A DNA stretch of 64,000 nucleotides from Candidatus Magasanikiibacteriota bacterium (GCA_041665405.1 JBAYIZ010000006.1:407-64406); one strand, 5' to 3'. Shown: positions 10,770-63,786, counted from the first letter of the stretch. The notes: generated from the sequence alone by a model not told the origin. Program-made: numbers and translations.

Positions 10770-11006
10770 ACTAATTATATTTAAGCCAATACTACGCTAT
10801 TTTGCACAAAAAATCAAGACAAACAAAAAACTTCCTATAAGAAGAAGTTTTTTCTATTCTCATGTCGTTAACAACAACAGGAAAATGGATGCCTGCTTTT
10901 TTGTACCGTGAGCGCAGGCGAATCTCACATATTTTCCTTGCGGCGACTAGCCACGCATTAATCACATGCGCAACTTATCAAGCCGAATTGTGTTGGTACG
11001 GCGCGA

Positions 11007-11420
11007 TCAGCGCGCCTTGGGGGCGGCTGCTTCTCGCAGTTCGGCCAGCTTCCTGTCTACCTTTGGGGTGCCGAGGTGTTGCTTGGCCGCGAACACGAGC
11101 TTTGCGCGGGCAGATTGCACCGCCCTGTTCGAAGGACGACGGCCGGGTGGAGTCAAAGCCACCACCGCCTGCAACATTGCCTCCGTCGTCTGCTCGTCAC
11201 CCTGCTTGTACTCCCTGAGCGTGAACAGGACCTTCTCCACCTTCTCGTGGAGATCCCAGGACTCGCGCCAATACGGCCTGTCTTCGCCGGAATGGAACTT
11301 GTCGAGCATGGAGTGAGCCCTCCTCGACCTGAAGTAGCAAAGGACCAACACAAGCATCGACACGATGTTCACCGCAACACTGATACTGTGCCACATAGAA
11401 ATCCCCACTTCCTTCACCAT
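11007..11420 (-). CDS. small single-pass membrane protein encoded in G+C-rich islet 1
   Basis: The frame has G/C-rich third positions. It has an N-terminal TM segment (ISMWHSISVAVNIVSMLVLVLCYF) and a helical charged tail. The start could be ATG 11420, or ATG 11396 (preceded by AAGGAAGTGG). The track start at 11486 is probably an over-extension. Confidence 0.5.
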   Translation of the reverse strand: MVKEVGISMWHSISVAVNIVSMLVLVLCYFRSRRAHSMLDKFHSGEDRPYWRESWDLHEKVEKVLFTLREYKQGDEQTTEAMLQAVVALTPPGRRPSNRAVQSARAKLVFAAKQHLGTPKVDRKLAELREAAAPKAR

Positions 11421-11571
11421 TGCTGACGAAGATGTTAGCTCTCTAGTTGGCGCGGGATGACACATCCACGCCCTTGCGACAAGCAAGCGGCAGCCCAGCT
11501 ACCTCTACTTTTTCCTTACCAAAAGAAAAACTAGCCGTAGCTTGGCCAAAATATATTTCAAAGAACGTGTA

Positions 11572-21369: not shown

Positions 21370-22734
21370 ATGCCCTCTCCGGCACAAAAAAGAATTGACG
21401 GCGACATCCACATCACCCTATTAATATTAGGGTGGGTGTTTTTGTTAATCAATTTGATGCTGGCCTATTCATTCAAAAATATTTTAGACAGACAATTATC
21501 AATGTTGGTCGGTGGCGCCTTTTTGATGCAGGGACTTTTTCTTTTATTAACTGCCACATACTTTTCTCACACCATAAAAGCGGCCAAAAAAGTTACTGAA
21601 GAATTGGAATTGGCAAAAATAAAAATAGAAACCGAAAAAGCCAAAGATGAGGCACTATTAAACAGCATTGGCGATGGTGTGGTAGCGACTGATAATACTG
21701 GGGCAATTATTTTTATTAACAAAGTCGCCGAAGAAATGTTGTCTTGGACGGGTGCAGTAATAGGAGAAAAATTGGGTGAGATTTCCTTGTTGACTAACGC
21801 CAATGGAGAACATATTTCAATAGAAAAACACCCACTACACCTGAGTTTAGAAACAAAAAAACAAGTAGTTACCAAGGACTATCGATTTGTGCGTGAAGGC
21901 AAAGTGGATCTGGCAGTATACATCAGTGCCACACCAGTAATTCTCAAAGACGAGGTTGTCGGGGCTATCGAAGTTTTCCGTGATATTACCAAAGAAAAAG
22001 AAATAGACCAAGCCAAAAGTGAATTCGTCTCGTTGGCCTCACACCAATTACGCACTCCCCTATCTACTGTAAATTGGTATACAGAAATGTTGTTGGCCGG
22101 TGATGCAGGAAAAATGAATGCTGAACAAAAAAAATATTTGCGCGAAATCTATGATAGTAACAATCGCATGATTGATTTGGTAAACACGTTGCTAAATGTA
22201 TCGCGTATTGAAATGGGGACCTTCAAAGTAAAACCAGAACCAATAAAAATCAGCGAAGTAATAGAATCGCTTTTAAGTGAATTGTCCGTACAAACTTCCC
22301 AACATAAATTAAAAGTGGAAAAAAAGTTTGGCAAGGATGTTCCAACTATCAATGCCGACCCTAGCTTGATTAGAATTATTATACAAAATCTTTTATCCAA
22401 TGCGGTGAAATATACACCCGATGGTGGAAAAATATCCGCCGAAGTGATGCGTCGTCCACACGATGTCATGATTGAAATAAAAGATAGCGGTTATGGTATT
22501 CCAAAAAACCAGCAAGATAAAATTTTTAATAAAATGTTTCGCGCCGAAAATGTGAAGGATAAAATTACGGATGGCAACGGGCTAGGGCTTTATTCCACTA
22601 AAGCAATAGTGGAACAATCCGGTGGAAAAATTTGGTTTGAATCAGAAGAAAACAAAGGCACTTCGTTTTTTGTTACTATTCCGCTAACAGATCCAAAGAA
22701 AAAAATCGGCAAGAAAAATTTATCGGCCTTTTAA
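21370..22734 (+). CDS. membrane sensor histidine kinase with a PAS domain
   Basis: Two TM segments, a PAS-like region, H-box SEFVSLASHQLRTPL, and N/G boxes (NLLSNAVKYT, DSGYGI, GLGLY). Confidence 0.9.
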   Translation: MPSPAQKRIDGDIHITLLILGWVFLLINLMLAYSFKNILDRQLSMLVGGAFLMQGLFLLLTATYFSHTIKAAKKVTEELELAKIKIETEKAKDEALLNSIGDGVVATDNTGAIIFINKVAEEMLSWTGAVIGEKLGEISLLTNANGEHISIEKHPLHLSLETKKQVVTKDYRFVREGKVDLAVYISATPVILKDEVVGAIEVFRDITKEKEIDQAKSEFVSLASHQLRTPLSTVNWYTEMLLAGDAGKMNAEQKKYLREIYDSNNRMIDLVNTLLNVSRIEMGTFKVKPEPIKISEVIESLLSELSVQTSQHKLKVEKKFGKDVPTINADPSLIRIIIQNLLSNAVKYTPDGGKISAEVMRRPHDVMIEIKDSGYGIPKNQQDKIFNKMFRAENVKDKITDGNGLGLYSTKAIVEQSGGKIWFESEENKGTSFFVTIPLTDPKKKIGKKNLSAF

Positions 22735-22772
22735 TTTATTAAAAACTCCTACGGAGCTCGACCCTAGAAATT

Positions 22773-23159
22773 ATGAAAAATACCAAAAAAATTTTAATAG
22801 TGGAAGACGAAAAACCAATCGTCGAAGCTCTCACTATTAAACTTACTAAAGAAGGCTACGAGCCACATTTTGCCACAACTGGAGAAGCTGGGTTGGCTTT
22901 GACAAAAGATCTTCACCCAGACTTAATTTTGTTAGATTTCATTCTGCCAGATATGGACGGCTTGTCATTCCTCAAAACCCTGCGGCTGGATAAATGGGGC
23001 AAATCTGCTCAAGTGCTAATATTGACCAACCTCAGTGATGGCAAAATAGCCGACGAAGTGGCTGAATATGGGGTTTTTGACTATCTGATCAAAGCCGACT
23101 GGCGCCTAGACGATGTGGTGAAGAAGGTGAAAGAAAAAGTAGGCAGAGGAAACAAATAA
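22773..23159 (+). CDS. single-domain response regulator
   Basis: REC motifs ILIVEDE, DLILLDFILPDMDG, and K near the C-terminus. There is no output domain. Confidence 0.88.
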   Translation: MKNTKKILIVEDEKPIVEALTIKLTKEGYEPHFATTGEAGLALTKDLHPDLILLDFILPDMDGLSFLKTLRLDKWGKSAQVLILTNLSDGKIADEVAEYGVFDYLIKADWRLDDVVKKVKEKVGRGNK

Positions 23160-23348
23160 CTCCACAAACAAAAACATCCCGACTAAATCGAGATGTTTTA
23201 TTTTTAAAGCGTTTATATCACTCGCACAATCTGAAAACAAATTTTATTTTCAAATTGCGCGGCGAGTGACATCTACCGCGTCTGCCCCACCGCCCGCTTG
23301 TAGCGAGTGGGGCTACGATGGCTAGTCTCTACAAATTAGCCCTTCCAT

Positions 23349-23822
23349 CTAGAAGGTGCCCGCCCCCAAGGCGAGTTGGACCTCCCATCCGAAGGAGTTC
23401 TTCTCCACGACGTCCTGTTGCCAGCCGACAGGGGCTTTCAGGAAAACGCGGGCACGCCACAGCTTCATACTGACCATCGGACCAGCCCCGTACAACAGCC
23501 CGTCGTTGCCCTTCTGTCCAGAAAGGACCCCGCCGAAGTTGAACGTGAGCCCATCAACGATCACGTCATAGGTGACGCCGTAGGCCATGCCGTAGCCCGA
23601 TACTTGGGTCGGAACCCAGAACTGGGCGAAGTGGGTCGTGTGACCATCCGGCTGGACCAAGTAGAGGCCCATGCCGATGTCGGTGCCGTCCTCAAACCCG
23701 GCGTGTTGCACGAACAGGCCGGCCCCACCAGTCTCCGGACCAGGACCCTCAGCCAGGGCGACTGAAGGAACTGCGAAAAGGACGACGCTCACGATGACGA
23801 AAAACCACGCGATGTGCTTCAT
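23349..23822 (-). CDS. secreted small beta-barrel-like (OMP-like) protein encoded in G+C-rich islet 2
   Basis: ATG 23822 is preceded by GGAG at 7 nt. Signal peptide is MKHIAWFFVIVSVVLFAVPSVALA|EG. It has Gly/aromatic-rich alternating strands and a C-terminal ...LALGAGTF. Third codon positions are G/C-rich. The track start at 23957 lies in the AT-rich leader and is probably spurious. Confidence 0.6.
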   Translation of the reverse strand: MKHIAWFFVIVSVVLFAVPSVALAEGPGPETGGAGLFVQHAGFEDGTDIGMGLYLVQPDGHTTHFAQFWVPTQVSGYGMAYGVTYDVIVDGLTFNFGGVLSGQKGNDGLLYGAGPMVSMKLWRARVFLKAPVGWQQDVVEKNSFGWEVQLALGAGTF

Positions 23823-23994
23823 GGATTTACTCCGAAAACTAGAGTTCATCGGTACCCAGCCGACACACCACGCGACAATCATTGTCGAGAGGTAAGGGTG
23901 ATTATTTATTCCTATATACATTAGAAATACATAATTTCCTTTACCTCTTTGAGACATTATTTATCCATTATAATTTAAAAAGAACTAACTGAAC

Positions 23995-24023
23995 AGTATC
24001 ACACAAAACAATCAAATTGTCAA
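23995..24023 (-). promoter_or_regulatory. sigma70-type promoter reading into G+C-rich islet 2
   Basis: Minus strand reads TTGACAatttgattgttttgtgtGATACT (17-nt spacer). It sits back-to-back with the rpsL promoter. Confidence 0.55.
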
Positions 24024-24031
24024 CATCTCTA

Positions 24032-24060
24032 TTGACAAACCCGCCTAAATATTATATTAT
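24032..24060 (+). promoter_or_regulatory. sigma70-type promoter of the rpsL-rpsG-fusA operon
   Basis: TTGACA-17 nt-TATTAT, about 150 nt upstream of rpsL. Confidence 0.65.
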
Positions 24061-24207
24061 CTACACAGAACTAGTCCTAAACCATCGTATGTATCTGATA
24101 CTTTGGCTAGGGGCGGACCAAAAGAATCGTGGCTGATTATATATGGTCAGTTTTTTTGTTATATTAAATCCGGCAAATCATCTAAGATTAGCCAAATTAA
24201 TTAAATT

Positions 24208-24636
24208 ATGCCTACAGTAAACCAATTGGTTAAAAAGGGTCGCATTAGCAAAGCCCGCAAGACCAAAGTACCGGCATTGCAATTTACCATTGATAACTTG
24301 CACCGCCGAAAAACCGTATTCGCCAAAGGCTGCGCCTTCAAAAGAGGTGTTTGCACTAAGGTATATACAACAACTCCTAAAAAACCTAACTCTGCTTTGC
24401 GTAAAGTCGCCAAAGTTCGTATGAGCAATGGATCAGAAGTTATCGCATATATCCCAGGTGAAGGTCACAATCTACAGGAACACTCTATCGTGCTTTTGCG
24501 CGGTGGTCGTGTAAAAGATCTTCCAGGTGTACGTTACCATATTGTTCGTGGTGTTTATGATGCTCAAGGTATCGAAAAACGCCGCCGCAGTCGCAGTATT
24601 TATGGTACAAAACGTCCAAAAGCAGCAAAGAAATAA
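24208..24636 (+). CDS. rpsL: 30S ribosomal protein S12
   Basis: [12 protein letters not shown]...[18 protein letters not shown]... is canonical S12. Confidence 0.97.
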
Positions 24637-25154: not shown

Positions 25155-25240
25155 CAAAGGGTAACTTTTTCGCTTTTTTTGCCCGCGAGGGCAAAAGGAT
25201 GAGCCTCGGCTCATAACCCGCTCAAAAGTAACCCTTTGCT
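25155..25240 (+). ncRNA. candidate structured RNA / terminator-embedded repeat, copy 1
   Basis: Outer stem is GCAAAGGGT.../...ACCCTTTGC. It encloses the conserved core TTTTTCGCTTTTTTTGCCCGCGAGGGCAAAAGGATGAGCCTCGGCTCATAACCCGCTCAAAAG. Related copies are at 38645 and 48340. Confidence 0.5.
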
Positions 25241-27394: not shown

Positions 27395-27419
27395 TTATCA
27401 AACAATGATAATTACTAAA

Positions 27420-27567
27420 TTTGTATACACTAGTCTATACAAAAGTGGATAAGTGTGTGCACAACTCCACTCTTGTGTGTATAACTTTTAACTGTTCGCC
27501 TTCTTAGCCACCCTTTTCTTGGCTAACCACAAAAGAAACTCTGTTTGTATAGACTAGTGTATACAAA
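27420..27567. repeat. 148-bp unit bounded by perfect 24-nt inverted repeats (MITE-like element or paired operators)
   Basis: TTTGTATACACTAGTCTATACAAA (27420-27443) has its exact reverse complement TTTGTATAGACTAGTGTATACAAA at 27544-27567. Each copy is itself quasi-palindromic around ACTAGT. Confidence 0.6.
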
Positions 27568-27570
27568 TGG

Positions 27571-28004: not shown

Positions 28005-28391
28005 ATGGCCAAAACGACTTTTAGCAAAGAATTTGTTACAAAAATAAAAACCTTACTACTAAAGGAAAAAGAGACCTTGGAAAAAGAACTAGGTAAATTT
28101 TCTCAAAAAAATAGTCGTGTAGCTGGAGATTATAATAGTAATTTCCCAGAATACGGTGACAAAGACGATGAGAATGCCGCTGAAGTTGCAGAATATGCCA
28201 CTGAACTTCCTTTAGAAGAAAGCTTTGAAAAAACTTTGCGCGATAACATCCAAGCCTTAACGCGCTTGGAAAATGATACTTACGGAATTTGCAAGTATTG
28301 CAAAAAACCAATCGATGAAAAACGATTGCTGGCTCGTCCAACTTCCAACGCTTGTATTACTTGTAAAAAAGCCATCACTCAAGAAATCTAA
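28005..28391 (+). CDS. DksA/TraR-family C4 zinc-finger protein
   Basis: C-terminal CKYCKKPI...CITCK. It has its own TTGACT-16-TATAAT promoter at about 27950-27977. Confidence 0.8.
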   Translation: MAKTTFSKEFVTKIKTLLLKEKETLEKELGKFSQKNSRVAGDYNSNFPEYGDKDDENAAEVAEYATELPLEESFEKTLRDNIQALTRLENDTYGICKYCKKPIDEKRLLARPTSNACITCKKAITQEI

Positions 28392-28392
28392 T

Positions 28393-28839
28393 ATGCAAAC
28401 AAAAGCCCGTCAGTTAATTATTTTTATTGGCGGCTTTTTTTTATTTTGTTTTGACCAAATATTAAAGTATTTTTCTTTACATACTCTCTCTGATGGTCAT
28501 GTGTTCTTCAACTTTTTTGGTTGGGGACCTTTTCAAAACCACGGGGTGGCTTTTAGTTTGCCGCTACCAAATACCCTTACTATAATATTCACTGCACCTA
28601 TAATTATAATTTTGTTGTGGTTTTTGATTAAATATTATTTTATTCCATCAAAACTAAATTTTTTTACAGGTCTGACATTAATTTTTTGGGGGGCTTTATC
28701 AAACCTAATCGACCGTGTTGTTTATCATGCGACCATTGATTATTTTGTGTTTGGAAGAGGGGTTATTAATTTGGCTGACATTCTAATCATTTTGGGTTTC
28801 CTTTTTTATTTATTACCATATAAATTTTTTAAACAATAA
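28393..28839 (+). CDS. lspA: lipoprotein signal peptidase (signal peptidase II)
   Basis: An internal ATG at 28393 gives a 148-aa, 4-TM protein with motifs NHGVAFS and NLIDRVVYHATIDYF. The track start at 28273 overlaps the upstream gene. Confidence 0.85.
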   Translation: MQTKARQLIIFIGGFFLFCFDQILKYFSLHTLSDGHVFFNFFGWGPFQNHGVAFSLPLPNTLTIIFTAPIIIILLWFLIKYYFIPSKLNFFTGLTLIFWGALSNLIDRVVYHATIDYFVFGRGVINLADILIILGFLFYLLPYKFFKQ

Positions 28840-35047: not shown

Positions 35048-36172
35048 TTATTGTCTTATCGGCATCACTATATAAACAAAACTGTCGTCGTTGGTTGGTA
35101 CAAAGAGACACGGGCTGTCTGCGTTTATCATTTTCAGCATACTGGTTTCTGATTTAATATTATTTAAACCATCCAAAACATATCGGTGGTTCAACATAAT
35201 AGCATTGTCGTCGCCGTTTGTTTCCGCACTTATTTCAGAACTATATTCACCCGTCTGGGAAGAAGTGGAGGAAAGTTTTACGACGCCTTCTTTACTACTA
35301 ATTATACAAGATATAGCGTTTACACCTATTGTGGTAAACAAACTGGCCATTTTAATTTCTTTACTCATCTTTCCAGTATCAAACATCGCAGATGTTTTGA
35401 ATTCTTTTGGTATAATTTGTGCATAGTCTGGATAATTTCCTTCTACTAAGCGAGAAACTAGTTGAATATTACCGTAGTGCATAGCAATTTGATTCTCTCC
35501 AACTAATATTCTAACGTTTTTTTCTTTTTCTTCATTATCCGCTAACGACAGTATGTGGATTATTTCTTGAGCAGTTCTACCCGGAACAATAATTTTAAAA
35601 TCTCCTTCTCCTTGTTGAATTTTAATTTTCTTTTCAGCCAATCTATAACTATCTGTAGCCGCCAATATTAAACCGGCATAATATGAAGTATTAAATCCAA
35701 AATACATTCCTGATAATTCCGGTCTTATTTCTGATTTAGCCAAAGAGGAAACAGTTTGTCCTAGTCCGCTCTTTAGTTGTTCTGCATCAAACAAAAATCC
35801 ATTTCCATCACTTACAGAAGGAATAACTGGAAATTCGTCAGCTGGTATTCCTTTTATTTTCGTTGATGATTTTCCACAGGTTATAACTAGCTCATTTTCT
35901 TTTAATTCCATTTCAATCTTTTCGTCAGAAAGTAAACTAACAAATTCACTAAGTGTTTTGGAAGGAACTGTAAACGAACCAGATTCATCCACTTTTGATC
36001 TCACGTGAGCAACTATTGCCAATTCTAGATTGGTTGCAATTATTTCTGTTTTTTGATCATCTGCTTTAATCAATATATTTCCCAGTATTGGAAGATTCAC
36101 ATTTTTATTTGCTATCCCTCCTACTATAGAAAGTGCTTTCGATAAATTATCTTTTGTACAAGTTATTTTCAT
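35048..36172 (-). CDS. dnaN: DNA polymerase III beta sliding clamp
   Basis: 374 aa, three-domain clamp pattern, located downstream of dnaA. Confidence 0.92.
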   Translation of the reverse strand: MKITCTKDNLSKALSIVGGIANKNVNLPILGNILIKADDQKTEIIATNLELAIVAHVRSKVDESGSFTVPSKTLSEFVSLLSDEKIEMELKENELVITCGKSSTKIKGIPADEFPVIPSVSDGNGFLFDAEQLKSGLGQTVSSLAKSEIRPELSGMYFGFNTSYYAGLILAATDSYRLAEKKIKIQQGEGDFKIIVPGRTAQEIIHILSLADNEEKEKNVRILVGENQIAMHYGNIQLVSRLVEGNYPDYAQIIPKEFKTSAMFDTGKMSKEIKMASLFTTIGVNAISCIISSKEGVVKLSSTSSQTGEYSSEISAETNGDDNAIMLNHRYVLDGLNNIKSETSMLKMINADSPCLFVPTNDDSFVYIVMPIRQ

Positions 36173-36447
36173 AAAGGATGGTGCGGGTTACATTATTTAA
36201 TTAAGTATATATATAAAATAATAATAGTAATAAGGCTGTGGAAAGGGTTAATAAGTCGTTTTTTGTTTTCAAATTAGCCAAGTTTAAGGTGAATAATTTT
36301 TTAACAGTTTGGTATAAAAGTGTGTGTGAAAAACGATTTATTTAAGTTTATTTATTTTCTGTTGATAAGTGGTTGACTTGTTCTTTTTATATTAACAACT
36401 TATTAACATTCTTTGCACACCATTTAGCGAAGAAAAAAAACCATGTT
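36173..36447. other. oriC candidate, part 1 (dnaA-dnaN spacer): AT-rich unwinding region plus degenerate DnaA boxes
   Basis: 275-nt noncoding spacer. AT-only tract at 36205-36232. TGTTGATAA (36360-68, 8/9 match to TGTGGATAA) and TGTGGAAAG (36237-45). Confidence 0.55.
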
Positions 36448-37842
36448 TTAGATATTATTGATATATAAACGCTGTCTTATTAATTCTAGTTCTTGTTTTA
36501 GTTTTAAATCATTATCTATTTCTTTGGTAATTTTTTCGTTGGCATGCATCGCTGTGGTGTGATCGCGTCCGCCCAGCTCATCGCCAATGGAAGGGAAAGA
36601 CATTTTAAGATCATTACGCAAAATATACATAATAATCTGGCGAGGATAAGAGAGCTTCTTTTCTCGGCTTTTACCACAAACATTTTCGGTGGAAACATTG
36701 AAAAAGGTGCAAACAGTCTCTATGGTCTGTTGTGATGTGACTGAACGTCTAGCCGAAGCAGAATCAAAACTAGAAAGAATTGATTTTACTGATTCGGCTG
36801 TCGGGGCCATATTTTTTAATTGATGATAAGCAATAATTTTATTTAGGGCGCCTTCAAGCTCACGAATGTTGCTCTGAACAATAGTAGCAACTGTATTTAG
36901 GGTTTTGTCGTCCAAAACAAAATTCTTTTCTTGGCACTTTTTGCCCAAAATAGCGACACGTGTTTCAAAATCAGGGGCAGAAACATCCACAATCATTCCC
37001 CACTCGAAGCGAGATTTGAGGCGATCCTCAAGGGCAGGGATGGCTTTTGGTGGGCGGTCAGAAGTTAAAATTACCTGCTTGTTTGCCTGGTGGAGCTCGT
37101 TAAAAGTATGAAAAAACGATTCTTGGCTGGCATCTTTGCCAGCGATGAACTGAATATCATCAATTAACAAAGCGTCGATAGTACGATAGCGGTTTTGGAA
37201 GTCTCTCGCTCCACCACTACGCAAAGAAGTAATAAAATCGTTGGTAAATTTCTCAGCACTAACATACAAGATATTGGTTTGAGGGTTTTTTTTCAACAAT
37301 TCATTGCCAACCGCCTGTAAAAGATGGGTTTTCCCCAAACCTACACCACCGTAGATAAACAGTGGATTGTAGGCCTCACCAGGACGGTCTGCCACTGCCT
37401 TGGCGGCGGTGAAAGCCAATTCGGAGCCTTTGCCAACCACAAAACTATCAAAATTGTATTTTGGGTTAATGGTAAATCCATGAGAAGCGACAGATTGGTG
37501 ACTAGTTTGTTGAGAGTATGAAGGTGTTTTTTCGTTTTCATGAGATACCGACGGGGAAGGAGGGGTGTTTATTGGTTGTTCCACAACATTTTTGATATTT
37601 TCGATCTTGTATTCCATCCTTCTAATAGGAAGGGCGGTGACCCTCTCTAAAGATTGGATGATTTGGTGGTGGTGTTTTTTTTCAATCCACGCCTGATTAA
37701 AGGTGTTTGGGACGCAGACAATAACATGGCCTTCTTGAAAACTAACAATACCAGTATTTTTGAACCAGGTGTTAAAATTCGCTTTGGAAATGGTTAATTC
37801 TAATTCAGATAAAACAGCCTGCCAAATTTCATTATTAGTCAT
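36448..37842 (-). CDS. dnaA: chromosomal replication initiator DnaA
   Basis: AAA+ Walker A GGVGLGKTHL, a sensor region, and the C-terminal DnaA signature (GGRDHTTAMHA). Confidence 0.96.
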   Translation of the reverse strand: MTNNEIWQAVLSELELTISKANFNTWFKNTGIVSFQEGHVIVCVPNTFNQAWIEKKHHHQIIQSLERVTALPIRRMEYKIENIKNVVEQPINTPPSPSVSHENEKTPSYSQQTSHQSVASHGFTINPKYNFDSFVVGKGSELAFTAAKAVADRPGEAYNPLFIYGGVGLGKTHLLQAVGNELLKKNPQTNILYVSAEKFTNDFITSLRSGGARDFQNRYRTIDALLIDDIQFIAGKDASQESFFHTFNELHQANKQVILTSDRPPKAIPALEDRLKSRFEWGMIVDVSAPDFETRVAILGKKCQEKNFVLDDKTLNTVATIVQSNIRELEGALNKIIAYHQLKNMAPTAESVKSILSSFDSASARRSVTSQQTIETVCTFFNVSTENVCGKSREKKLSYPRQIIMYILRNDLKMSFPSIGDELGGRDHTTAMHANEKITKEIDNDLKLKQELELIRQRLYINNI

Positions 37843-38644: not shown

Positions 38645-38739
38645 AAAAAACTTTTATTTTATTTCGCTTTTTTTGCCCGCGAGGGCAAAAGGATGAAGCC
38701 GCGGCTTCATAACCCGCTCAATTAAAATAAAAGTTTTTT
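38645..38739 (+). ncRNA. candidate structured RNA / terminator-embedded repeat, copy 2
   Basis: A 17-bp outer stem (AAAAAACTTTTATTTTA/TAAAATAAAAGTTTTTT) encloses the core TTTCGCTTTTTTTGCCCGCGAGGGCAAAAGGATGAAGCCGCGGCTTCATAACCCGCTCAA. Confidence 0.5.
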
Positions 38740-44157: not shown

Positions 44158-44271
44158 ATATGTATGATTAAAAATACTTCGCAATATTATCTTAAAACAC
44201 AAAAAAAGTCAATTTTATGGCTGTGGTATTGCTTTTTTGAGGATGTTGGTGTATATTTTTTAAATCCACCC

Positions 44272-44529
44272 GTGGCCAGGTCGTGTTATATAGACACAGC
44301 CTCGGCGACTATAGCGAAAGAGGGGAAACCATGGCGCGAGCCAAACCGGCAACGGACACGTGTTGAGGTACATGTTCGATTCCAGTTCAACCTCAGGCCG
44401 CAACAACGGGCTGAGGAGGCCACGCAGAAGGCCAAGAAGTGGCAGAGGGACAACCCGGGCTGGGGCTGTGATCCCAACCCCACGACGATCGGCAACGGCT
44501 ACGCTACCTTCAGGGCTCGTCGCACCTGA
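44272..44529 (+). pseudogene. G+C-rich islet 3 ORF with unresolved start (possibly frameshifted or a gene fragment)
   Basis: G/C-rich third positions mark this frame from about 44380 to TGA 44527-29 (...QQRAEEATQKAKKWQRDNPGWGCDPNPTTIGNGYATFRARRT). The only SD+ATG (GAGGGG-N6-ATG 44331) is in another frame and stops after 11 codons. The in-frame candidates are GTG 44272, or the AT-rich extension at 44149. Confidence 0.3.
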
Positions 44530-44660
44530 CGACGATCAACCTCTTCGACGCACACCCCCAGTCGAGCACAAGTTGCTCCTGGGGGCGGGGCTTAGATGAA
44601 ATTATCCTTCCTGTCCTAAGTAGAAAAAATATTTTCTTTTTAGGACAAGGATAATTTCTT

Positions 44661-48339: not shown

Positions 48340-48437
48340 AACATCCCAGACAATGACTTTTTCGCTTTTTTCGACCGCGAGGTCGAAAGGATGAGCCTCG
48401 GCTCATAACCCGCTCAAAAGTAATTGTCTGGGATGTT
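48340..48437 (+). ncRNA. candidate structured RNA / terminator-embedded repeat, copy 3
   Basis: A 15-bp perfect outer stem (AACATCCCAGACAAT/ATTGTCTGGGATGTT) is followed by a T7 run. It encloses the core TTTTTCGCTTTTTTCGACCGCGAGGTCGAAAGGATGAGCCTCGGCTCATAACCCGCTCAAAAG. Confidence 0.55.
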
Positions 48438-48453
48438 TTTTTGTACCATAAAA

Positions 48454-48482
48454 TTGACTTTGTGTTTTTTATCAAGTAAAAT
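48454..48482 (+). promoter_or_regulatory. sigma70-type promoter reading into G+C-rich islet 4
   Basis: TTGACT-17 nt-TAAAAT. The composition switches to G+C-rich about 6 nt downstream. Confidence 0.6.
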
Positions 48483-48576
48483 ATTTTTGTGTCCCAAACG
48501 ACCGACGGTTCGCCGTTCGGTCACAACGACCACTTGCACCGCTCATCGGTGGTGGTCTCGAAAAGGAGAGAGAGCC

Positions 48577-48798
48577 ATGCGTGTGCTTCCCTCGATCCTG
48601 AACCAGAGCCGGAGACGGAGCGACAATTCCGCCGATTGCGGGCAGGTCGCGAGCTCCGAGGCCGACTTCATCCACAGGCAACTGCTCGAGCATGGCTTCT
48701 GCTCGGACATGAAGGAGGGCGCCGTCGGCACCGCCAACATGGTCGGCATCGTCTGTTCGACCGCGGCCGGCCGCGGAGCAGTAGTCCTCCTGGTGTAG
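48577..48798 (+). CDS. 73-aa protein of unknown function encoded in G+C-rich islet 4
   Basis: AAGGAG sits 8 nt before the ATG. By my codon-by-codon read, G/C at codon position 3 is very high in this frame only. Sequence: MRVLPSILNQSRRRSDNSADCGQVASSEADFIHRQLLEHGFCSDMKEGAVGTANMVGIVCSTAAGRGAVVLLV. Confidence 0.55.
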   Translation: MRVLPSILNQSRRRSDNSADCGQVASSEADFIHRQLLEHGFCSDMKEGAVGTANMVGIVCSTAAGRGAVVLLV

Positions 48799-48827
48799 GG
48801 CTCAGCTTCGTACGAGACAACCAGTGC

Positions 48828-48881
48828 GGCCGGACCGGGAGCTCCTTCGGGGGTTTCTGGTCCGGCCGTCGTTTCCTTTTT
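48828..48881 (+). terminator. GC-rich hairpin terminator after the islet 4 ORF
   Basis: GGCCGGACC...GGTCCGGCC (9 bp), followed by gtcgTTTCCTTTTTATT. Confidence 0.55.
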
Positions 48882-48962
48882 ATTATATTTAATACTCAAA
48901 GCGGGTATTTTTTTATTGCTCAAAAAAGGGTTTGCGTGTAAAATAAGAACGAATAATATTTT

Positions 48963-61118: not shown

Positions 61119-61128
61119 AATTTAAAAA

Positions 61129-61162
61129 CAAAAAACCGATTGCAGATTGCAGTCGGTTTTTT
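61129..61162 (+). terminator. conserved TrmB-module terminator (copy 2)
   Basis: AAAAAACCGATTGCagatTGCAGTCGGTTTTTTG. Confidence 0.8.
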
Positions 61163-61308
61163 GATAACTTCTTGAGCTCAACAAGATGTTGGAGTGAATG
61201 AGCGGTCACTACCAGCCGCGTGACTTTTTGTTTTACCGGTAGTCACAAACCGGATGATCCCAGACCCCTCATCAGCGGACCATTGAATTGTCCTGAAACT
61301 TTGCACCT

Positions 61309-61707
61309 CTACGCCTGTTCGCGACAGGGCAGGCATTCGTAGCCCACCCAAAGGCCGTTGGCAAAGGTGAAGTCGAAGTCCCAGCGGTTGTCACCACCGT
61401 ACCAGCAGAGGCTGGCAGTGTATTTGAATCCATTGGGGGCGAGAAGAGTGGTGCCAGTGAGCACGATCTTCTTCTTACGCATTTTCATCGGAATCTGGTC
61501 TTGGTGGTCAAGCAGTTGCTGGCCGTCACGCACTCCAAGGACGCCATTCCGACGACGTGCGCGTTCGCGCAATTCGGAGCCCTTGATGCATTCCTCGCCA
61601 CGCTTGAGGCACGACTCGATCCGGAGCTTGTTGATGTGAAGATCTGCAATTGGATCACAGTCTTCCACAACCTTAAACTCCACCCTGTTCCAAACGAATG
61701 TATTCAC
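61309..61707 (-). CDS. 132-aa cytoplasmic protein of unknown function encoded in G+C-rich islet 5
   Basis: The GTG start is preceded by AAGGAGG at 6 nt. The frame is open across the whole G+C-rich segment. No signal peptide and no family recognised. Confidence 0.6.
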   Translation of the reverse strand: MNTFVWNRVEFKVVEDCDPIADLHINKLRIESCLKRGEECIKGSELRERARRRNGVLGVRDGQQLLDHQDQIPMKMRKKKIVLTGTTLLAPNGFKYTASLCWYGGDNRWDFDFTFANGLWVGYECLPCREQA

Positions 61708-61775
61708 CTTTCACCTCCTTGCGGTTCTGACAGGTTGGTTGCTCTGAAGAGAGCAATTGTTGTTAACAACTCAAT

Positions 61776-61804
61776 AAAATATCATATTTCACTTTATTGG
61801 TCAA
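61776..61804 (-). promoter_or_regulatory. sigma70-type promoter reading into G+C-rich islet 5
   Basis: Minus strand reads TTGACC-17 nt-TATTTT. It is homologous to the islet 6 promoter. Confidence 0.5.
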
Positions 61805-61865
61805 TCATTTTATCCCTAAAATTAGCAAAAAAATCAGATAAAAGCTGACAAAATTATGTTGGGGG

Positions 61866-61894
61866 TTGACTTTTTGGCTAAATTCATATAAAAT
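61866..61894 (+). promoter_or_regulatory. promoter of TrmB-like paralog 3
   Basis: TTGACT-17 nt-TAAAAT, followed by the shared TCATAAATAATATGAcAAT-ATG leader. Confidence 0.6.
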
Positions 61895-61918
61895 AATCAT
61901 CATAAATAATATGACAAT

Positions 61919-63031
61919 ATGTTAGAACAAAAACTAGAAAAACTTGGTTTTGGAAAAAACGAAGTGAAAGTATATCTAGCTCTTTTTGATTTGGGTAAAT
62001 GTAAAGCCAAACAAATCATTGATAACACAGGTCTTCATCGTAATCTTGTCTACACGGCACTTGATGATTTGATTGGAAAGAAATTAATTTCAAAAGTCGA
62101 GAGTAATGGAATTTTTTTATTTTGGGTTAATAGCCCTGAACTTTTGAACGAAATAATAGAAGAAAAAGCTATAACGGCAAAAGAAGTGATTGAACAATTA
62201 AAAAAGAAAAGCGCCAGTCAACCTCGTGAGATATTAATTTATGAAGGTGAAGAGGGTGTGAAGAAAAGTCGCACCAAAGTTTTAACATATGGAAAAGGAG
62301 ATACATTTTATATGTTAGGAACAAAAGCGAGTTTCTCGCCTTCGATGGAAAAATTTTCAAAGGAGTTTGATTCGCTAAGAATTAAAAAGGGAATTTATTC
62401 AAAAATTTTAGTCGAACATGATGTGAATAAAGATGAACTTAAACATCTTAATAAAATGCCACTTAGTGAAGCCAAGCACCTTCCTCTTGATTTGGAAATG
62501 CCTATTTGGTTTTCAGTTATTCAAGATTATTTGGAAATTGGCATCCCAGGCGTTGATCCACTGATTTTTTCGATAAAAAATAAAGCGGTGGCTGGGGCAA
62601 TAAAAAAATTTATAGATTTTTTCTGGAATCAAGAATCCGAAGTTGTTACAGGCGCAAAGGCTTTACAAGAGATTATGTTGGAATCCATTGATTATGGTGA
62701 GTTGAAAGGTATCGGCGCAAAAGGCAATTTTTTTGAAAATTATCCGGGATTTTTTAATGATATAAAAAAGCGAGCAGTAATGAAACAAGGACTGGTCTGG
62801 AGAAACATTGTTGATCCAAGTATGAAAGGGCATGAGATTACAAAATTTTTGTGGACTAAAACAAAATATAATTTATCCGATACAAAAAATCCCAATGTTG
62901 TTTGGTTGTATGGCCCGAAAGCTGTGATTATAAATTGGGCGGATAAAGAACCTGTGATGTTTGTTTCTACAAATAAGGCGCTAGTGCAAAGTTATAATGA
63001 TTATTTTGAGGAGATGTGGGGTAAAGATTAA
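61919..63031 (+). CDS. TrmB-like wHTH regulator with a large C-terminal domain (paralog 3)
   Basis: N-terminus MLEQKLEKLGFGKNEVKVYLALFDLGKCKAKQIIDNTGLHRNLVYTALDDLIGKKLI. Confidence 0.75.
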   Translation: MLEQKLEKLGFGKNEVKVYLALFDLGKCKAKQIIDNTGLHRNLVYTALDDLIGKKLISKVESNGIFLFWVNSPELLNEIIEEKAITAKEVIEQLKKKSASQPREILIYEGEEGVKKSRTKVLTYGKGDTFYMLGTKASFSPSMEKFSKEFDSLRIKKGIYSKILVEHDVNKDELKHLNKMPLSEAKHLPLDLEMPIWFSVIQDYLEIGIPGVDPLIFSIKNKAVAGAIKKFIDFFWNQESEVVTGAKALQEIMLESIDYGELKGIGAKGNFFENYPGFFNDIKKRAVMKQGLVWRNIVDPSMKGHEITKFLWTKTKYNLSDTKNPNVVWLYGPKAVIINWADKEPVMFVSTNKALVQSYNDYFEEMWGKD

Positions 63032-63041
63032 CACTAAGAAC

Positions 63042-63075
63042 AAAAAACCGATTGCGATATGCAGTCGGTTTTTTA
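63042..63075 (+). terminator. conserved TrmB-module terminator (copy 3)
   Basis: AAAAAACCGATTGCgataTGCAGTCGGTTTTTTA. Confidence 0.8.
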
Positions 63076-63168
63076 ATTACTTCTTGAACCAAAATGATTT
63101 AGTTCGAAAAGTAGCTGCGCGTCTTTTTGACCGGGACGCGCAACCGGGTGAGAGGGTGGAACCGGACG

Positions 63169-63660
63169 TCACAGGAATGCGATTCCCAGTGACGGCTGGA
63201 ACAGCAACGAGTAATCGCCGCCATCCAGGGTCTTCGCCAGTCCAAATGCCATGGACAGCGACAGACCGTTTCCGATTCCGTAGGCCAGGCCGGTGCCCAG
63301 ACCAACCAAGTCGGAAGACGGCTTGCCGCCGTAACCGACATTGCGCTGGTAGAGCACGCTGGCCTGGGTGGACCAACGATCAGTCAGTCCCAGCGACACA
63401 CCTGCAGAGAGGCGTGGGCTGGGCTTGCAACTGTCGTTGGGGGTGGCCAGCCCGATTCCGCCCGCGATGGACACCTTGTTGGAGACCTTCTCCGACAGCG
63501 AGATGTCGTAGCGGGTGGAGGCCGAGGCGGGGGTGAGCCCGTCCTTCAGGAGGACGACGTAGCCCTCCCGGATGTTGAAGACCGGGGTCAGGGCGCTGGC
63601 CGAAGCCGAGACACCGCTCAGAACCACGGCCACCAGGACGATCAGGGTGGAGATCTTCAT
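63169..63660 (-). CDS. secreted small beta-barrel-like (OMP-like) protein encoded in G+C-rich islet 6
   Basis: GAGGTG lies 4 nt before the ATG. Signal peptide is MKISTLIVLVAVVLSGVSASASA|L. The protein has Gly-rich alternating strands and a C-terminal ...QPSLGIAFL. Confidence 0.6.
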   Translation of the reverse strand: MKISTLIVLVAVVLSGVSASASALTPVFNIREGYVVLLKDGLTPASASTRYDISLSEKVSNKVSIAGGIGLATPNDSCKPSPRLSAGVSLGLTDRWSTQASVLYQRNVGYGGKPSSDLVGLGTGLAYGIGNGLSLSMAFGLAKTLDGGDYSLLFQPSLGIAFL

Positions 63661-63736
63661 GGGACACCTCTGCAGACCAGAAGGCCTGCCATCTGCATTA
63701 GTCAGTCAGGTTGCATTTGCGAACCCATACTGCTTT

Positions 63737-63786
63737 TGCCAGACGAAATAGTTCACAATAGATCTTATGGACTATTTCGTCTGGCA
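63737..63786 (-). promoter_or_regulatory. 16-bp perfect hairpin in the 5' leader of the islet 6 gene
   Basis: TGCCAGACGAAATAGT-N18-ACTATTTCGTCTGGCA lies between the promoter (63829-57) and the ATG (63660). No T-run follows it. Confidence 0.5.

What the first reader, a model, noticed from the sequence alone, without database searches (positions are those of the whole stretch)
23225..24023. Islet 2: GC-rich signal-peptide beta-barrel-like protein next to the str operon
Seen:
- ORF 23349-23822 (minus) encodes MKHIAWFFVIVSVVLFAVPSVALA|EGPG...
- It has Gly/aromatic amphipathic strands (YGMAYGVTYDVIV, LTFNFGGVL, WEVQLALGAGTF) and a terminal Phe.
- A 5' leader of about 165 nt contains an imperfect hairpin, AGAGGTAAGG...CCTTTACCTCT (23888-23948).
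- The 3' flank has two hairpins: GCCCCAC/GTGGGGC, and TCACTCGC...GCGAGTGA enclosing TGAAAA/TTTTCA.

Established knowledge: a terminal aromatic residue plus a Gly-rich beta pattern is the signature of outer-membrane barrels assembled by BAM.

Inference: if the host cell is a monoderm CPR bacterium, it would have no obvious place for an OMP. The protein could instead be exported toward or inserted into a partner cell, act as a pore-former, or be non-functional baggage.
Basis: partly seen in the sequence, partly recalled or inferred. Interest (0 to 1): 0.7.

Follow-up and report, generated by a model that had tools for sequence, protein, structure and literature searches.

The report
GC-rich orphan secreted-protein gene islet
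A 0.63-kb GC-rich insert beside the ribosomal str operon of an AT-rich Candidatus Magasanikbacteria (CPR) genome is a real, self-contained gene for a small exported beta-strand protein with no detectable relatives, and a related species carries a different GC-rich gene at the same spot; the outer-membrane-barrel reading is not supported by any test run here.

Summary
The ORF at 23349-23822 (-), its signal peptide, terminal Phe, leader hairpin and two 3' hairpins are all present, inside a 61% GC tract in a 38% GC genome. Three independent assemblies reproduce the junctions. Codon-position GC (0.64/0.42/0.78), a GGAG ribosome-binding site and a sigma-70-like promoter support a real monocistronic gene.

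The protein is an orphan: about 15 billion proteins, Pfam, NCBIfam, PHROGs, PADLOC, PDB, phages and plasmids gave only itself.

The more interesting result is context. The window holds six such GC-rich single-gene islets. In a related species with syntenic flanks, the stretch from the promoter to a conserved 52-nt hairpin holds an unrelated GC-rich lipoprotein gene. Islet 2 therefore looks like replaceable cargo in a conserved expression slot, probably imported from an unsampled GC-rich gene pool, encoding a surface or secreted protein.

Interest is moderate; mechanism and donor are unknown.

The parts
23995..24023 (-). Sigma-70-like promoter of the islet gene: TTGACA, 17 nt, TG-GATACT. It lies back to back with the rpsL promoter.
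   Evidence: 10 of 12 matches, TG extension. The -35 box is conserved in species B.
24032..24060 (+). Divergent promoter-like site for rpsL (TTGACA-17-TATTAT). It belongs to the conserved backbone, not the cargo.
   Evidence: 11 of 12 matches. The region from about 24029 to the rpsL start is largely conserved with L028 (81% nt identity over 24029-24485; alignment).
23823..23988 (-). 5' leader of about 166 nt (start site inferred). It has an AT-rich part (23893-23990, 22% GC) and a GC-rich part (23823-23892, 51% GC).
   Evidence: The transcription start is inferred from the -10 box.
23886..23948 (-). Stable leader hairpin (AGAGGTAAAGG...CCCTTACCTCT).
   Evidence: -22.8 kcal/mol, z = -5.7. There is no significant Rfam match.
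23830..23833 (-). Shine-Dalgarno GGAG, 7 nt upstream of the ATG.
   Evidence: Read directly from the sequence.
23349..23822 (-). ORF of 157 aa plus stop. It is an orphan exported protein, NCBI MFA6424137.1 / WCV83_02360, annotated 'hypothetical protein'.
   Evidence: Codon-position GC is 0.64/0.42/0.78. Codon usage is unlike host genes. No homologues were found.
23751..23822 (-). Signal peptide codons 1-24 (MKH, then a 16-residue hydrophobic core, then PSVALA|E). The predicted SPase I site follows Ala-Leu-Ala.
   Evidence: Manual reading of the translation. SignalP was not available.
23270..23892 (.). GC-rich cargo tract of about 620 bp. It includes non-coding flanks: 58% GC on the 3' side and 51% GC on the 5' side.
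23270..24028 (.). Segment with no homology to the syntenic locus of species B (L028 7174-7754). This is the swapped unit, running from just after the -35 box to the conserved hairpin.
23285..23312 (-). Weak 3' hairpin GCCCCAC...GTGGGGC inside the cargo. A hairpin of similar shape ends the species-B cargo.
   Evidence: z = -0.9 here; z = -4.3 in L028.
23218..23269 (.). Long conserved palindromic hairpin TCACTCGC...GCGAGTGA at the 3' border of the swapped segment. It is part of the backbone.
   Evidence: unique in the window, expected 0.00. (z = -7.7; L028 copy z = -8.5). Alignment.
23171..23199 (.). Bidirectional intrinsic terminator shared by the response-regulator gene (+) and the islet gene (-).
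   Evidence: z = -6.7. T-runs are present on both strands.

Best explanation
Islet 2 is a genuine, independently transcribed accessory gene. It sits in a conserved 'slot' between a two-component system and the str operon of a Candidatus Magasanikbacteria (CPR) genome.

How it is expressed (partly shown, partly inferred):
- A host-type sigma-70 promoter, back to back with the rpsL promoter, drives a leader of about 166 nt with a stable hairpin.
- A GGAG ribosome-binding site precedes a 157-codon ORF.
- The transcript runs through a conserved 52-nt hairpin to a bidirectional terminator shared with the response-regulator gene.

What the product is (inferred from sequence):
- It is exported by Sec and cut after Ala24.
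- The mature protein is about 14 kDa and 133 aa, acidic, Gly- and aromatic-rich and essentially all beta.
- It probably acts at the cell surface or outside the cell.

Where it came from:
- About 620 bp have foreign composition, covering the ORF and its immediate non-coding flanks.
- The whole transcribed unit is replaced by an unrelated GC-rich lipoprotein gene in a related species.
- The most likely history is horizontal import from an unsampled GC-rich gene pool, with cargo turnover by recombination in conserved flanks.
- This makes it a miniature 'replacement' flexible islet encoding variable surface or secreted proteins, probably involved in partner or phage interactions.

Shown: gene structure, composition, orphan status, reproducibility, and slot replacement.
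Inferred: export, surface role, HGT origin, and recombination mechanism.
Not established: whether the protein is a membrane beta-barrel.
For: Reality of the sequence:
- The identical sequence occurs in Logan, JGI and ENA assemblies.

Coding status:
- Codon-position GC is 0.64/0.42/0.78.
- A Shine-Dalgarno site and signal peptide are present.
- NCBI and JGI both call the 157-aa protein.

Expression signals:
- Promoter and terminator sites were found.
- The hairpins fold far better than shuffles.

Foreign composition:
- The tract is 61% GC against 38% for the window.
- Valine codon GTC is 55% in the islet against 10% in host genes, and the non-coding cargo flanks are 51-58% GC.

Orphan status:
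- The 5.8 billion cluster search and phmmer against 1.84 billion representatives returned only itself, plus two spurious repeat proteins.
- Nothing was found in viral contigs, plasmids, phages, PHROGs, PADLOC or PDB.

Slot replacement:
- L028/L029 have syntenic flanks at 76-81% nt identity.
- They carry a different GC-rich 149-aa lipoprotein gene between the same -35 box and the same hairpin.
- The two cargo proteins resemble each other only in 15 residues of the signal peptide.

The class is functional and flexible:
- Islet 5 has a 78% identical orthologue with dN/dS of 0.23.
- Islet 6 plus a TrmB gene is absent from that relative.
- There are six islets in 64 kb, each with a promoter-like site.
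- Such islets were not seen in about 450 kb of other CPR loci, where the one GC-rich patch examined lay inside an ordinary 460-aa gene.
Against: - No donor or homologue was found for any tested islet. That is awkward for a recent import from ordinary bacteria.
- No integrase, transposase, tRNA target, direct repeats or shared end motifs were found.
- There is no divergent copy of the islet 2 gene, so selection on it cannot be measured.
- Export and cleavage were judged by eye only.
- Only one relative is available for this slot, so 'replacement' rests on a single comparison in which dS between flanking genes is saturated.
- Four-fold sites of islet 5 are not decaying faster than host genes (28/82 against 55/117). 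This hints that the GC-richness may be maintained rather than a fading import signature.
Confidence: 0.55

Rival explanations
1. One reading: the mature protein is a small, roughly 8-stranded transmembrane beta-barrel of the OMP type. Because CPR cells are thought to lack an outer membrane, it would insert into a partner cell's outer membrane or act as a pore-former.
For: - It has a Sec signal peptide, high Gly (18.8%), 13.5% aromatic residues, few charges, and a terminal Phe.
- About eight candidate strands can be read by eye, with short and longer connections alternating.
- AlphaFold secondary structure is a beta-hairpin meander.
- A sister islet protein (63169-63660) and its orthologue both give sub-threshold hits to OMP_b-brl PF13505, E about 1e-3 to 2e-3.
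- Absence of an outer membrane in Patescibacteria is the proposed state (PMC12102498).
Against: - No OMP family hit at E <= 1 for this protein.
- There is no relation to the islet 5 protein.
- Beyond the final Phe, the beta-signal is not canonical.
- Strand amphipathicity is not significant against shuffles.
- The species-B cargo in the same slot is a Cys-rich lipoprotein, not barrel-like.
Confidence: 0.2
2. Transient baggage: a recently captured foreign fragment that happens to lie downstream of a promoter. It would be expressed or not, with no function in this organism.
For: - It is an orphan, present in one species only, with un-ameliorated GC and foreign codon usage.
- The slot turns over between species.
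Against: - The ORF is intact, with a ribosome-binding site, a well-formed signal peptide and protein-like GC2 (0.42).
- It is identical in three sampled populations.
- The comparable islet 5 gene is under purifying selection, dN/dS 0.23.
- Each islet is a tidy promoter-ORF-terminator unit.
Confidence: 0.13
3. Cassette capture by a site-specific system of the integron, Xer or hairpin-targeting type. The conserved 52-nt hairpin would act as the recombination site and the promoter as a fixed expression platform.
For: - The swapped segment is bounded on one side by a promoter and on the other by a conserved long palindrome.
- The cargo is a single small orphan ORF, as in integron cassettes.
- Both cargos end in a similarly shaped CCCAC...GTGGG hairpin.
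Against: - No attC R''/R' core pairs occur in any islet.
- No recombinase gene was seen near any islet.
- The islets are dispersed singles, not arrays.
- The hairpin is unique in the window, and the other islets share no end motif.
Confidence: 0.07
4. The GC-richness is not an import signature. It would be maintained in place by selection or a biased process acting on these transcripts, in lineage-specific fast-evolving genes.
For: - No donor was found among about 15 billion proteins.
- Islet 5 keeps GC4 of 0.78 and 0.62 in two species.
- Its four-fold sites differ no more than those of a host gene, 0.34 against 0.47.
Against: - Non-coding cargo flanks are also GC-rich, while the promoter and part of the leader are AT-rich.
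- The cargo is non-homologous between species.
- No known mechanism is available.
- The four-fold-site contrast is only marginal (about p = 0.06, small counts).
Confidence: 0.05

Closest known systems
Small 8-stranded outer-membrane beta-barrels (OmpX, OmpA N-domain, Pfam OMP_b-brl PF13505)
   Same: It has a Sec signal peptide, a mature size of about 130-170 aa, a Gly- and aromatic-rich and poorly charged composition, predicted antiparallel beta hairpins, and a C-terminal Phe.
   Different: There is no HMM match, the beta-signal is non-canonical, no confident barrel model was obtained, and the host phylum is thought to lack an outer membrane and BAM (PMC12102498).
Replacement-type flexible genomic islands (same locus, non-homologous surface-related genes in related lineages; concept known from Prochlorococcus, SAR11 and others, cited from my own knowledge)
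   Same: The flanks are conserved and syntenic. The cargo at the same position is unrelated in two related populations that co-occur in one sample. Both cargos encode exported proteins.
   Different: The unit is a single gene of about 0.6-0.75 kb rather than a multi-gene cluster. The cargo is GC-rich in an AT-rich host and entirely orphan. The swap boundaries are a promoter and a conserved hairpin.
Integron gene cassettes
   Same: It is a small, single, mostly orphan ORF filling nearly the whole unit. An imperfect palindrome lies at the 3' end, and expression comes from an external promoter.
   Different: There are no attC core sites, no integrase, no tandem array, and part of the leader belongs to the cargo.
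Secreted soluble up-and-down beta-barrels or beta sandwiches of monoderm bacteria (for example streptavidin-like or calycin-like folds; analogy from my own knowledge, not tested)
   Same: It has a signal peptide, a mature domain of about 125-135 aa, roughly eight antiparallel strands, and Gly- and aromatic-rich composition. This fold class suits a cell without an outer membrane.
   Different: No sequence or fold match to these families was found.

Membership tests
BAM-assembled outer-membrane beta-barrel protein | N-terminal Sec signal peptide with an SPase I site | tested here: met
   MKH, hydrophobic core, A-L-A|E, read from the translation. No predictor was run.
BAM-assembled outer-membrane beta-barrel protein | Significant match to an OMP family profile (OMP_b-brl, OmpA_membrane, Ail_Lom, OmpW and others) | tested here: not met
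   Pfam returned 0 families at E <= 1. NCBIfam gave nothing relevant. PDB sequence search gave nothing relevant.
BAM-assembled outer-membrane beta-barrel protein | C-terminal beta-signal: polar-x-Gly-x-x-aromatic/hydrophobic-x-aromatic/hydrophobic, ending in Phe or Trp | tested here: not met
   The last eight residues are L-A-L-G-A-G-T-F. The terminal Phe is present, but position -3 is Gly and the motif's Gly position is Leu. The hydrophobic face of the last strand is out of register with the Phe (read from the sequence).
BAM-assembled outer-membrane beta-barrel protein | Closed antiparallel barrel with an even number of strands | tested here: inconclusive
BAM-assembled outer-membrane beta-barrel protein | Host has an outer membrane and BamA/Lpt/Lol machinery | not testable with these tools
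   Only about 75 kb of the genome was available. None was recognised by eye among the window's ORFs or in the Pfam scan of ten of the less recognisable window ORFs; the extra ~9 kb of L050 was checked only through its precomputed Pfam labels. Patescibacteria are proposed to lack an outer membrane (PMC12102498).
Horizontally acquired genomic islet | Atypical base composition and codon usage relative to the host | tested here: met
   The tract is 61% GC against 38%. GC3 is 0.78 against 0.34-0.43 in host genes. Codon preferences differ.
Horizontally acquired genomic islet | Patchy distribution: absent or different at the syntenic locus of relatives | tested here: met
   L028/L029 carry unrelated cargo between conserved flanks.
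Horizontally acquired genomic islet | Identifiable donor lineage or homologues elsewhere | tested here: not met
   No homologue was found in any database searched.
Horizontally acquired genomic islet | Mobility signatures (integrase or transposase, tRNA target, flanking repeats) | tested here: not met
   No flanking direct repeats and no shared end motifs were found. No tRNA is adjacent to islet 2.
Integron gene cassette | attC site with R''(RYYYAAC)/R'(GTTRRRY) cores in an imperfect palindrome | tested here: not met
   The pattern scan of all six islets, on both strands, found none.
Integron gene cassette | Tandem array next to an intI integrase and attI | tested here: not met
   The islets are dispersed singles between housekeeping genes. 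No integrase-like ORF was seen in the window by ORF survey and partial Pfam scan.
Structured non-coding RNA (alternative meaning of a GC-rich island in an AT-rich genome) | Match to an RNA family, or lack of coding signal | tested here: not met
   Rfam at gathering threshold found only two tRNAs elsewhere in the window. The E-value scan of 23150-24210 gave only chance-level hits. Three-base GC periodicity fits the ORF frame.

The most novel reading that the evidence does not exclude
This Magasanikbacteria lineage would keep dedicated expression slots, each a fixed promoter plus a conserved 3' hairpin and terminator. Single GC-rich orphan genes for exported proteins would be swapped into these slots from an unknown GC-rich gene pool by a mechanism not yet described. 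Some of the cargos (islet 2, and more plausibly islet 5) would be small beta-barrels delivered into the outer membrane of a diderm partner cell as part of the episymbiotic lifestyle.
Probability: 0.1. Interest if true: 0.85.

Novelty: new variant of a known kind. Interest (0 to 1): 0.45.

Why it matters
CPR bacteria are thought to live attached to other cells, but very few of the proteins that mediate contact are known.

A class of compositionally foreign, orphan, exported proteins would be a concrete candidate set for partner- or phage-facing surface molecules. These genes sit in conserved, promoter-equipped slots and differ between co-occurring sister populations.

The combination of un-ameliorated GC-richness with no donor among about 15 billion proteins also raises the question of where such genes come from.

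If any of these proteins proves to be a real membrane barrel in a phylum without an outer membrane, that would bear directly on how episymbionts breach a host envelope.

By itself, islet 2 is currently just a well-formed hypothetical secreted protein.

Tried and rejected
- Assembly chimera: rejected, because three assemblers and samples give the same junctions.
- Non-coding RNA: rejected on Rfam results and codon periodicity.
- A known gene in another frame: five alternative-frame ORFs have no Pfam match.
- Homology searches: phmmer gave two weak hits, P0004 and P0005. They are multi-repeat proteins (one with MAM domains, the other with only repeat-inflated weak Pfam matches) scoring by summed weak stretches, so they are not homologues. 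Viral contigs, phages, plasmids, PHROGs, PADLOC and PDB gave nothing.
- Relation between the islet 2 and islet 5 proteins: none by BLASTP or hhalign.
- Integron attC scan: negative.
- Shared end motifs among islets: none beyond backbone terminators.
- Synteny in GTDB genomes: the histidine-kinase relatives were too distant, with no RR-rpsL linkage.
- Metagenome scan: it yielded only one informative relative, L029, which is identical to L028.
- Exact look-up of rpsL found no record.
- GC patches in other CPR loci: the one examined lay inside an ordinary 460-aa gene, which is not the same phenomenon.
- Literature searches found no description of GC-rich mini-islets in CPR genomes.

Full report
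**1.

The minus strand of 23000-24300 and the ORF list show the 157-codon ORF at 23349-23822. Its N-terminus is MKHIAWFFVIVSVVLFAVPSVALA|EGPG, it contains the quoted Gly- and aromatic-rich segments, and it ends in Phe.

The ORF lies in a sharply bounded GC-rich tract. 100-nt windows reach 0.57-0.67 GC from about 23250 to 23890, in a 64-kb window averaging 0.384.

The hairpins behave as follows.
- The leader hairpin at 23886-23948 folds at -22.8 kcal/mol, z = -5.7.
- The TCACTCGC...GCGAGTGA hairpin at 23218-23269 folds at -30.5 kcal/mol, z = -7.7. It is unique in the window, with 0.00 expected by chance.
- The GCCCCAC/GTGGGGC hairpin exists but is no better than shuffled sequence, z = -0.9.

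The neighbours are a histidine kinase, a stand-alone receiver protein, and then rpsL-rpsG-fusA.

**2. It is not an assembly artefact, and the host is a CPR bacterium**

- A Logan contig from SRR6484324 is 100% identical over 23240-24151.
- A JGI contig from 3300037810 spans 21970-24381 with five mismatches, all in rpsL.
- An ENA contig of 97.6 kb is identical to the window over 12,082 bases.
- NCBI holds the same 157-aa protein as MFA6424137.1, 'hypothetical protein WCV83_02360 [Candidatus Magasanikbacteria bacterium]'.
- Patescibacteria are proposed to lack an outer membrane (PMC12102498).

**3. It is a protein-coding, independently expressed gene**

- Codon-position GC is 0.64/0.42/0.78 in the ORF frame. 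This is the pattern of a real gene from a genome of about 60% GC. Host genes have GC3 of 0.34-0.43.
- Codon choice is unlike host genes. Valine GTC is 55% against 10%. Leucine uses CTG and CTC instead of TTA and TTG.
- GGAG lies 7 nt before the ATG.
- A promoter-like site, TTGACA-17-TG-GATACT, sits at 24023-23995 on the minus strand. It is back to back with a TTGACA-17-TATTAT site for rpsL.
- A bidirectional terminator at 23171-23199 follows the gene.
- Rfam finds nothing credible, and alternative-frame ORFs match no family.

**4. The protein is an orphan**

- The search of 5.8 billion protein clusters returned only itself.
- phmmer against 1.84 billion representatives returned itself plus two repeat proteins. 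Their scores are sums of weak stretches, so they are not homologues.
- Pfam, NCBIfam, PHROGs, PADLOC, PDB sequences, IMG/VR, phage records and plasmid records gave nothing.

**5. The beta-barrel interpretation is neither confirmed nor refuted, and no positive test came back**

Points in favour:
- The signal peptide.
- Gly 18.8%, F+W+Y 13.5%, only 18 charged residues of 133, net charge -6.
- About eight candidate strands by eye.
- An AlphaFold secondary structure of consecutive beta hairpins.

Points against:
- No OMP family match, even at E <= 1.
- The final eight residues, LALGAGTF, satisfy only the last position of the BAM beta-signal.
- The 180-degree hydrophobic moment is not significantly above shuffles, z = 1.6 and 0.16.
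- AlphaFold confidence is poor, pLDDT 49.3 and 49.6, pTM 0.43.

A soluble secreted beta protein fits a cell without an outer membrane at least as well.

**6. The context is the more interesting finding**

The window holds six GC-rich tracts of 375-680 bp:
- 10878-11508
- 23223-23892
- 44259-44633
- 48469-48916
- 61196-61698
- 63079-63756

More lie in the next 10 kb of the same contig.

Five of the six contain one small ORF preceded by a near-consensus promoter in AT-rich DNA. The products are unrelated to each other and have no family.

The islet 5 protein is also signal-peptide bearing. It and its orthologue give sub-threshold OMP_b-brl hits, E = 1.3e-3 and 2e-3.

Comparable islets were not seen in about 450 kb of other Patescibacteria loci; the one GC-rich patch I examined there lay inside an ordinary 460-aa gene.

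**7. Comparative evidence**

Species B (L028, identical to L029):
- It comes from an ENA assembly and a JGI metagenome.
- It is syntenic with the window from the pilin genes through the kinase and receiver to rpsL, at 76-81% nt identity.
- Homology stops at window 23269 and resumes at 24029.
- Between those points species B carries a different GC-rich gene (50-59% GC) for a 149-aa lipoprotein whose signal peptide ends in LVGC.
- That protein resembles the islet 2 protein only over 15 signal-peptide residues, and these use different serine codon families.
- The -35 box and the 52-nt hairpin at the borders are conserved.
- Species A and species B contigs occur in the same ENA assembly.

Species C (L027):
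- It has an orthologue of islet 5 that is 78% identical at the protein level and still GC-rich.
- For islet 5, dN/dS = 0.23, with dS 0.60 and dN 0.135.
- For the adjacent TrmB gene, dS is 0.88 and dN is 0.031.
- At least one islet gene is therefore under purifying selection while evolving about four times faster than the backbone.
- L027 lacks islet 6 together with one TrmB paralogue. That segment is flanked by copies of a terminator repeat.

So the islets are the flexible part of an otherwise syntenic genome. One is replaced, one is retained, and one is present or absent.

**8. Most likely explanation**

Islet 2 is replaceable cargo in a conserved expression slot. It is a miniature replacement-type flexible islet encoding an exported protein.

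The foreign composition covers the ORF and its immediate non-coding flanks (51-58% GC). It does not cover the promoter or the first 100 nt of the leader (22% GC). This argues for import of a GC-rich segment rather than codon-level selection.

Turnover through recombination in conserved flanks is plausible. A cluster of five SNPs within 19 bp of rpsL separates two otherwise identical populations, which looks like a short recombination tract.

No mobility gene, attC site, target duplication or shared end motif was found. The mechanism is therefore inferred.

**9. What remains unexplained**

The GC signature is strong, yet no donor exists among about 15 billion proteins.

Islet 5's four-fold sites are not diverging faster than host sites, 28/82 against 55/117. 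Neutral decay toward the host's AT bias predicts faster divergence. The contrast is only marginal, but it leaves two possibilities open:
- GC-richness is maintained in place.
- Islets moved between lineages after those lineages split.

**10. Verdict**

- The OMP interpretation is only partly supported: exported beta-rich protein in a CPR host, yes; barrel, unproven.
- The finding is best filed as a new variant of a known kind, namely flexible horizontally acquired islets. Its unusual features are GC-rich single orphan genes, conserved promoter and hairpin borders, and high density.
- Interest is moderate.

Noticed in passing
window 10878-11508, 44259-44633, 48469-48916, 61196-61698, 63079-63756: Five further GC-rich islets (54-60% GC) lie in intergenic positions. 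Four carry one small orphan ORF behind a near-consensus promoter: 11007-11420 (-), a protein with an N-terminal hydrophobic (putative membrane) segment by eye; 48577-48798 (+), 73 aa; 61309-61707 (-), 132 aa; and 63169-63660 (-), 163 aa and exported. None has a family.
   Followed up: partly
window 63169-63660 (-); L027 643-1128: The islet 5 protein has a signal peptide. It and its 78% identical orthologue both give sub-threshold OMP_b-brl hits (E = 1.3e-3 and 2e-3). dN/dS is 0.23, and GC3 is 0.82 against 0.66 in the relative. It is a better outer-membrane-barrel candidate than islet 2.
   Followed up: partly
window 44259-44633: Islet 3 has no convincing ORF with a start codon and ribosome-binding site. 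It could be a very small protein gene or a structured RNA. Rfam found nothing at gathering threshold.
   Followed up: no
window 61184-63035 (L050 9266-11117): Islet 6 plus one TrmB-family gene is absent from relative L027. The segment is bracketed by two copies of a 53-nt terminator repeat (61123-61175 and 63035-63087), which suggests gain or loss by recombination between the repeats. The region holds a run of TrmB-family paralogues interleaved with GC-rich orphans.
   Followed up: partly
L050 17280-18617 and 19627-20475 (same contig, beyond the window end): More GC-rich genes (52-58% GC) of 194, 201 and 184 aa with no Pfam family. The phenomenon continues outside the window.
   Followed up: partly
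window 25164-25231, 38658-38725, 48356-48423: A 68-nt repeat (69-94% identical) contains two GC-rich hairpins. Two copies are framed by 26-nt inverted repeats (38639/38720 and 48336/48416). It looks like a miniature mobile element or a small RNA family. One copy abuts islet 4.
   Followed up: no
window 24237-24255 (rpsL codons 10-16): Five SNPs within 19 bp are the only differences from JGI contig L026 over 2.4 kb. They change Ile13 to Thr and Ala16 to Val, which are the residues found in species B. This is a likely short recombination tract next to the slot.
   Followed up: partly
window 24061-24207: Much of the roughly 150-nt rpsL 5' leader is nearly identical to species B, well above the 76% nt identity of the kinase-side flank. 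This suggests a conserved regulatory leader for the str operon.
   Followed up: no
window 35048-37842: dnaN (35048-36172, -) and dnaA (36448-37842, -) coincide with the minimum of cumulative GC skew near 36 kb. rnpA and yidD follow nearby. The window probably spans the replication origin.
   Followed up: no
window 27419-27443 / 27544-27568: A perfect 25-nt inverted repeat, with arms separated by 100 nt, lies just downstream of fusA.
   Followed up: no
window 23349-23957 and 62997-63536: Public gene calls disagree on the GC-rich tracts. The islet 2 product is recorded as 157, 177 and 202 aa. At islet 5 the ENA record (L050 table) calls the antisense ORF (179 aa) instead of the signal-peptide ORF. 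GC-rich tracts in AT-rich genomes mislead gene callers.
   Followed up: yes
window 28273-28839: A signal peptidase II (LspA) gene is present. The lineage can therefore process lipoproteins such as the species-B cargo.
   Followed up: no
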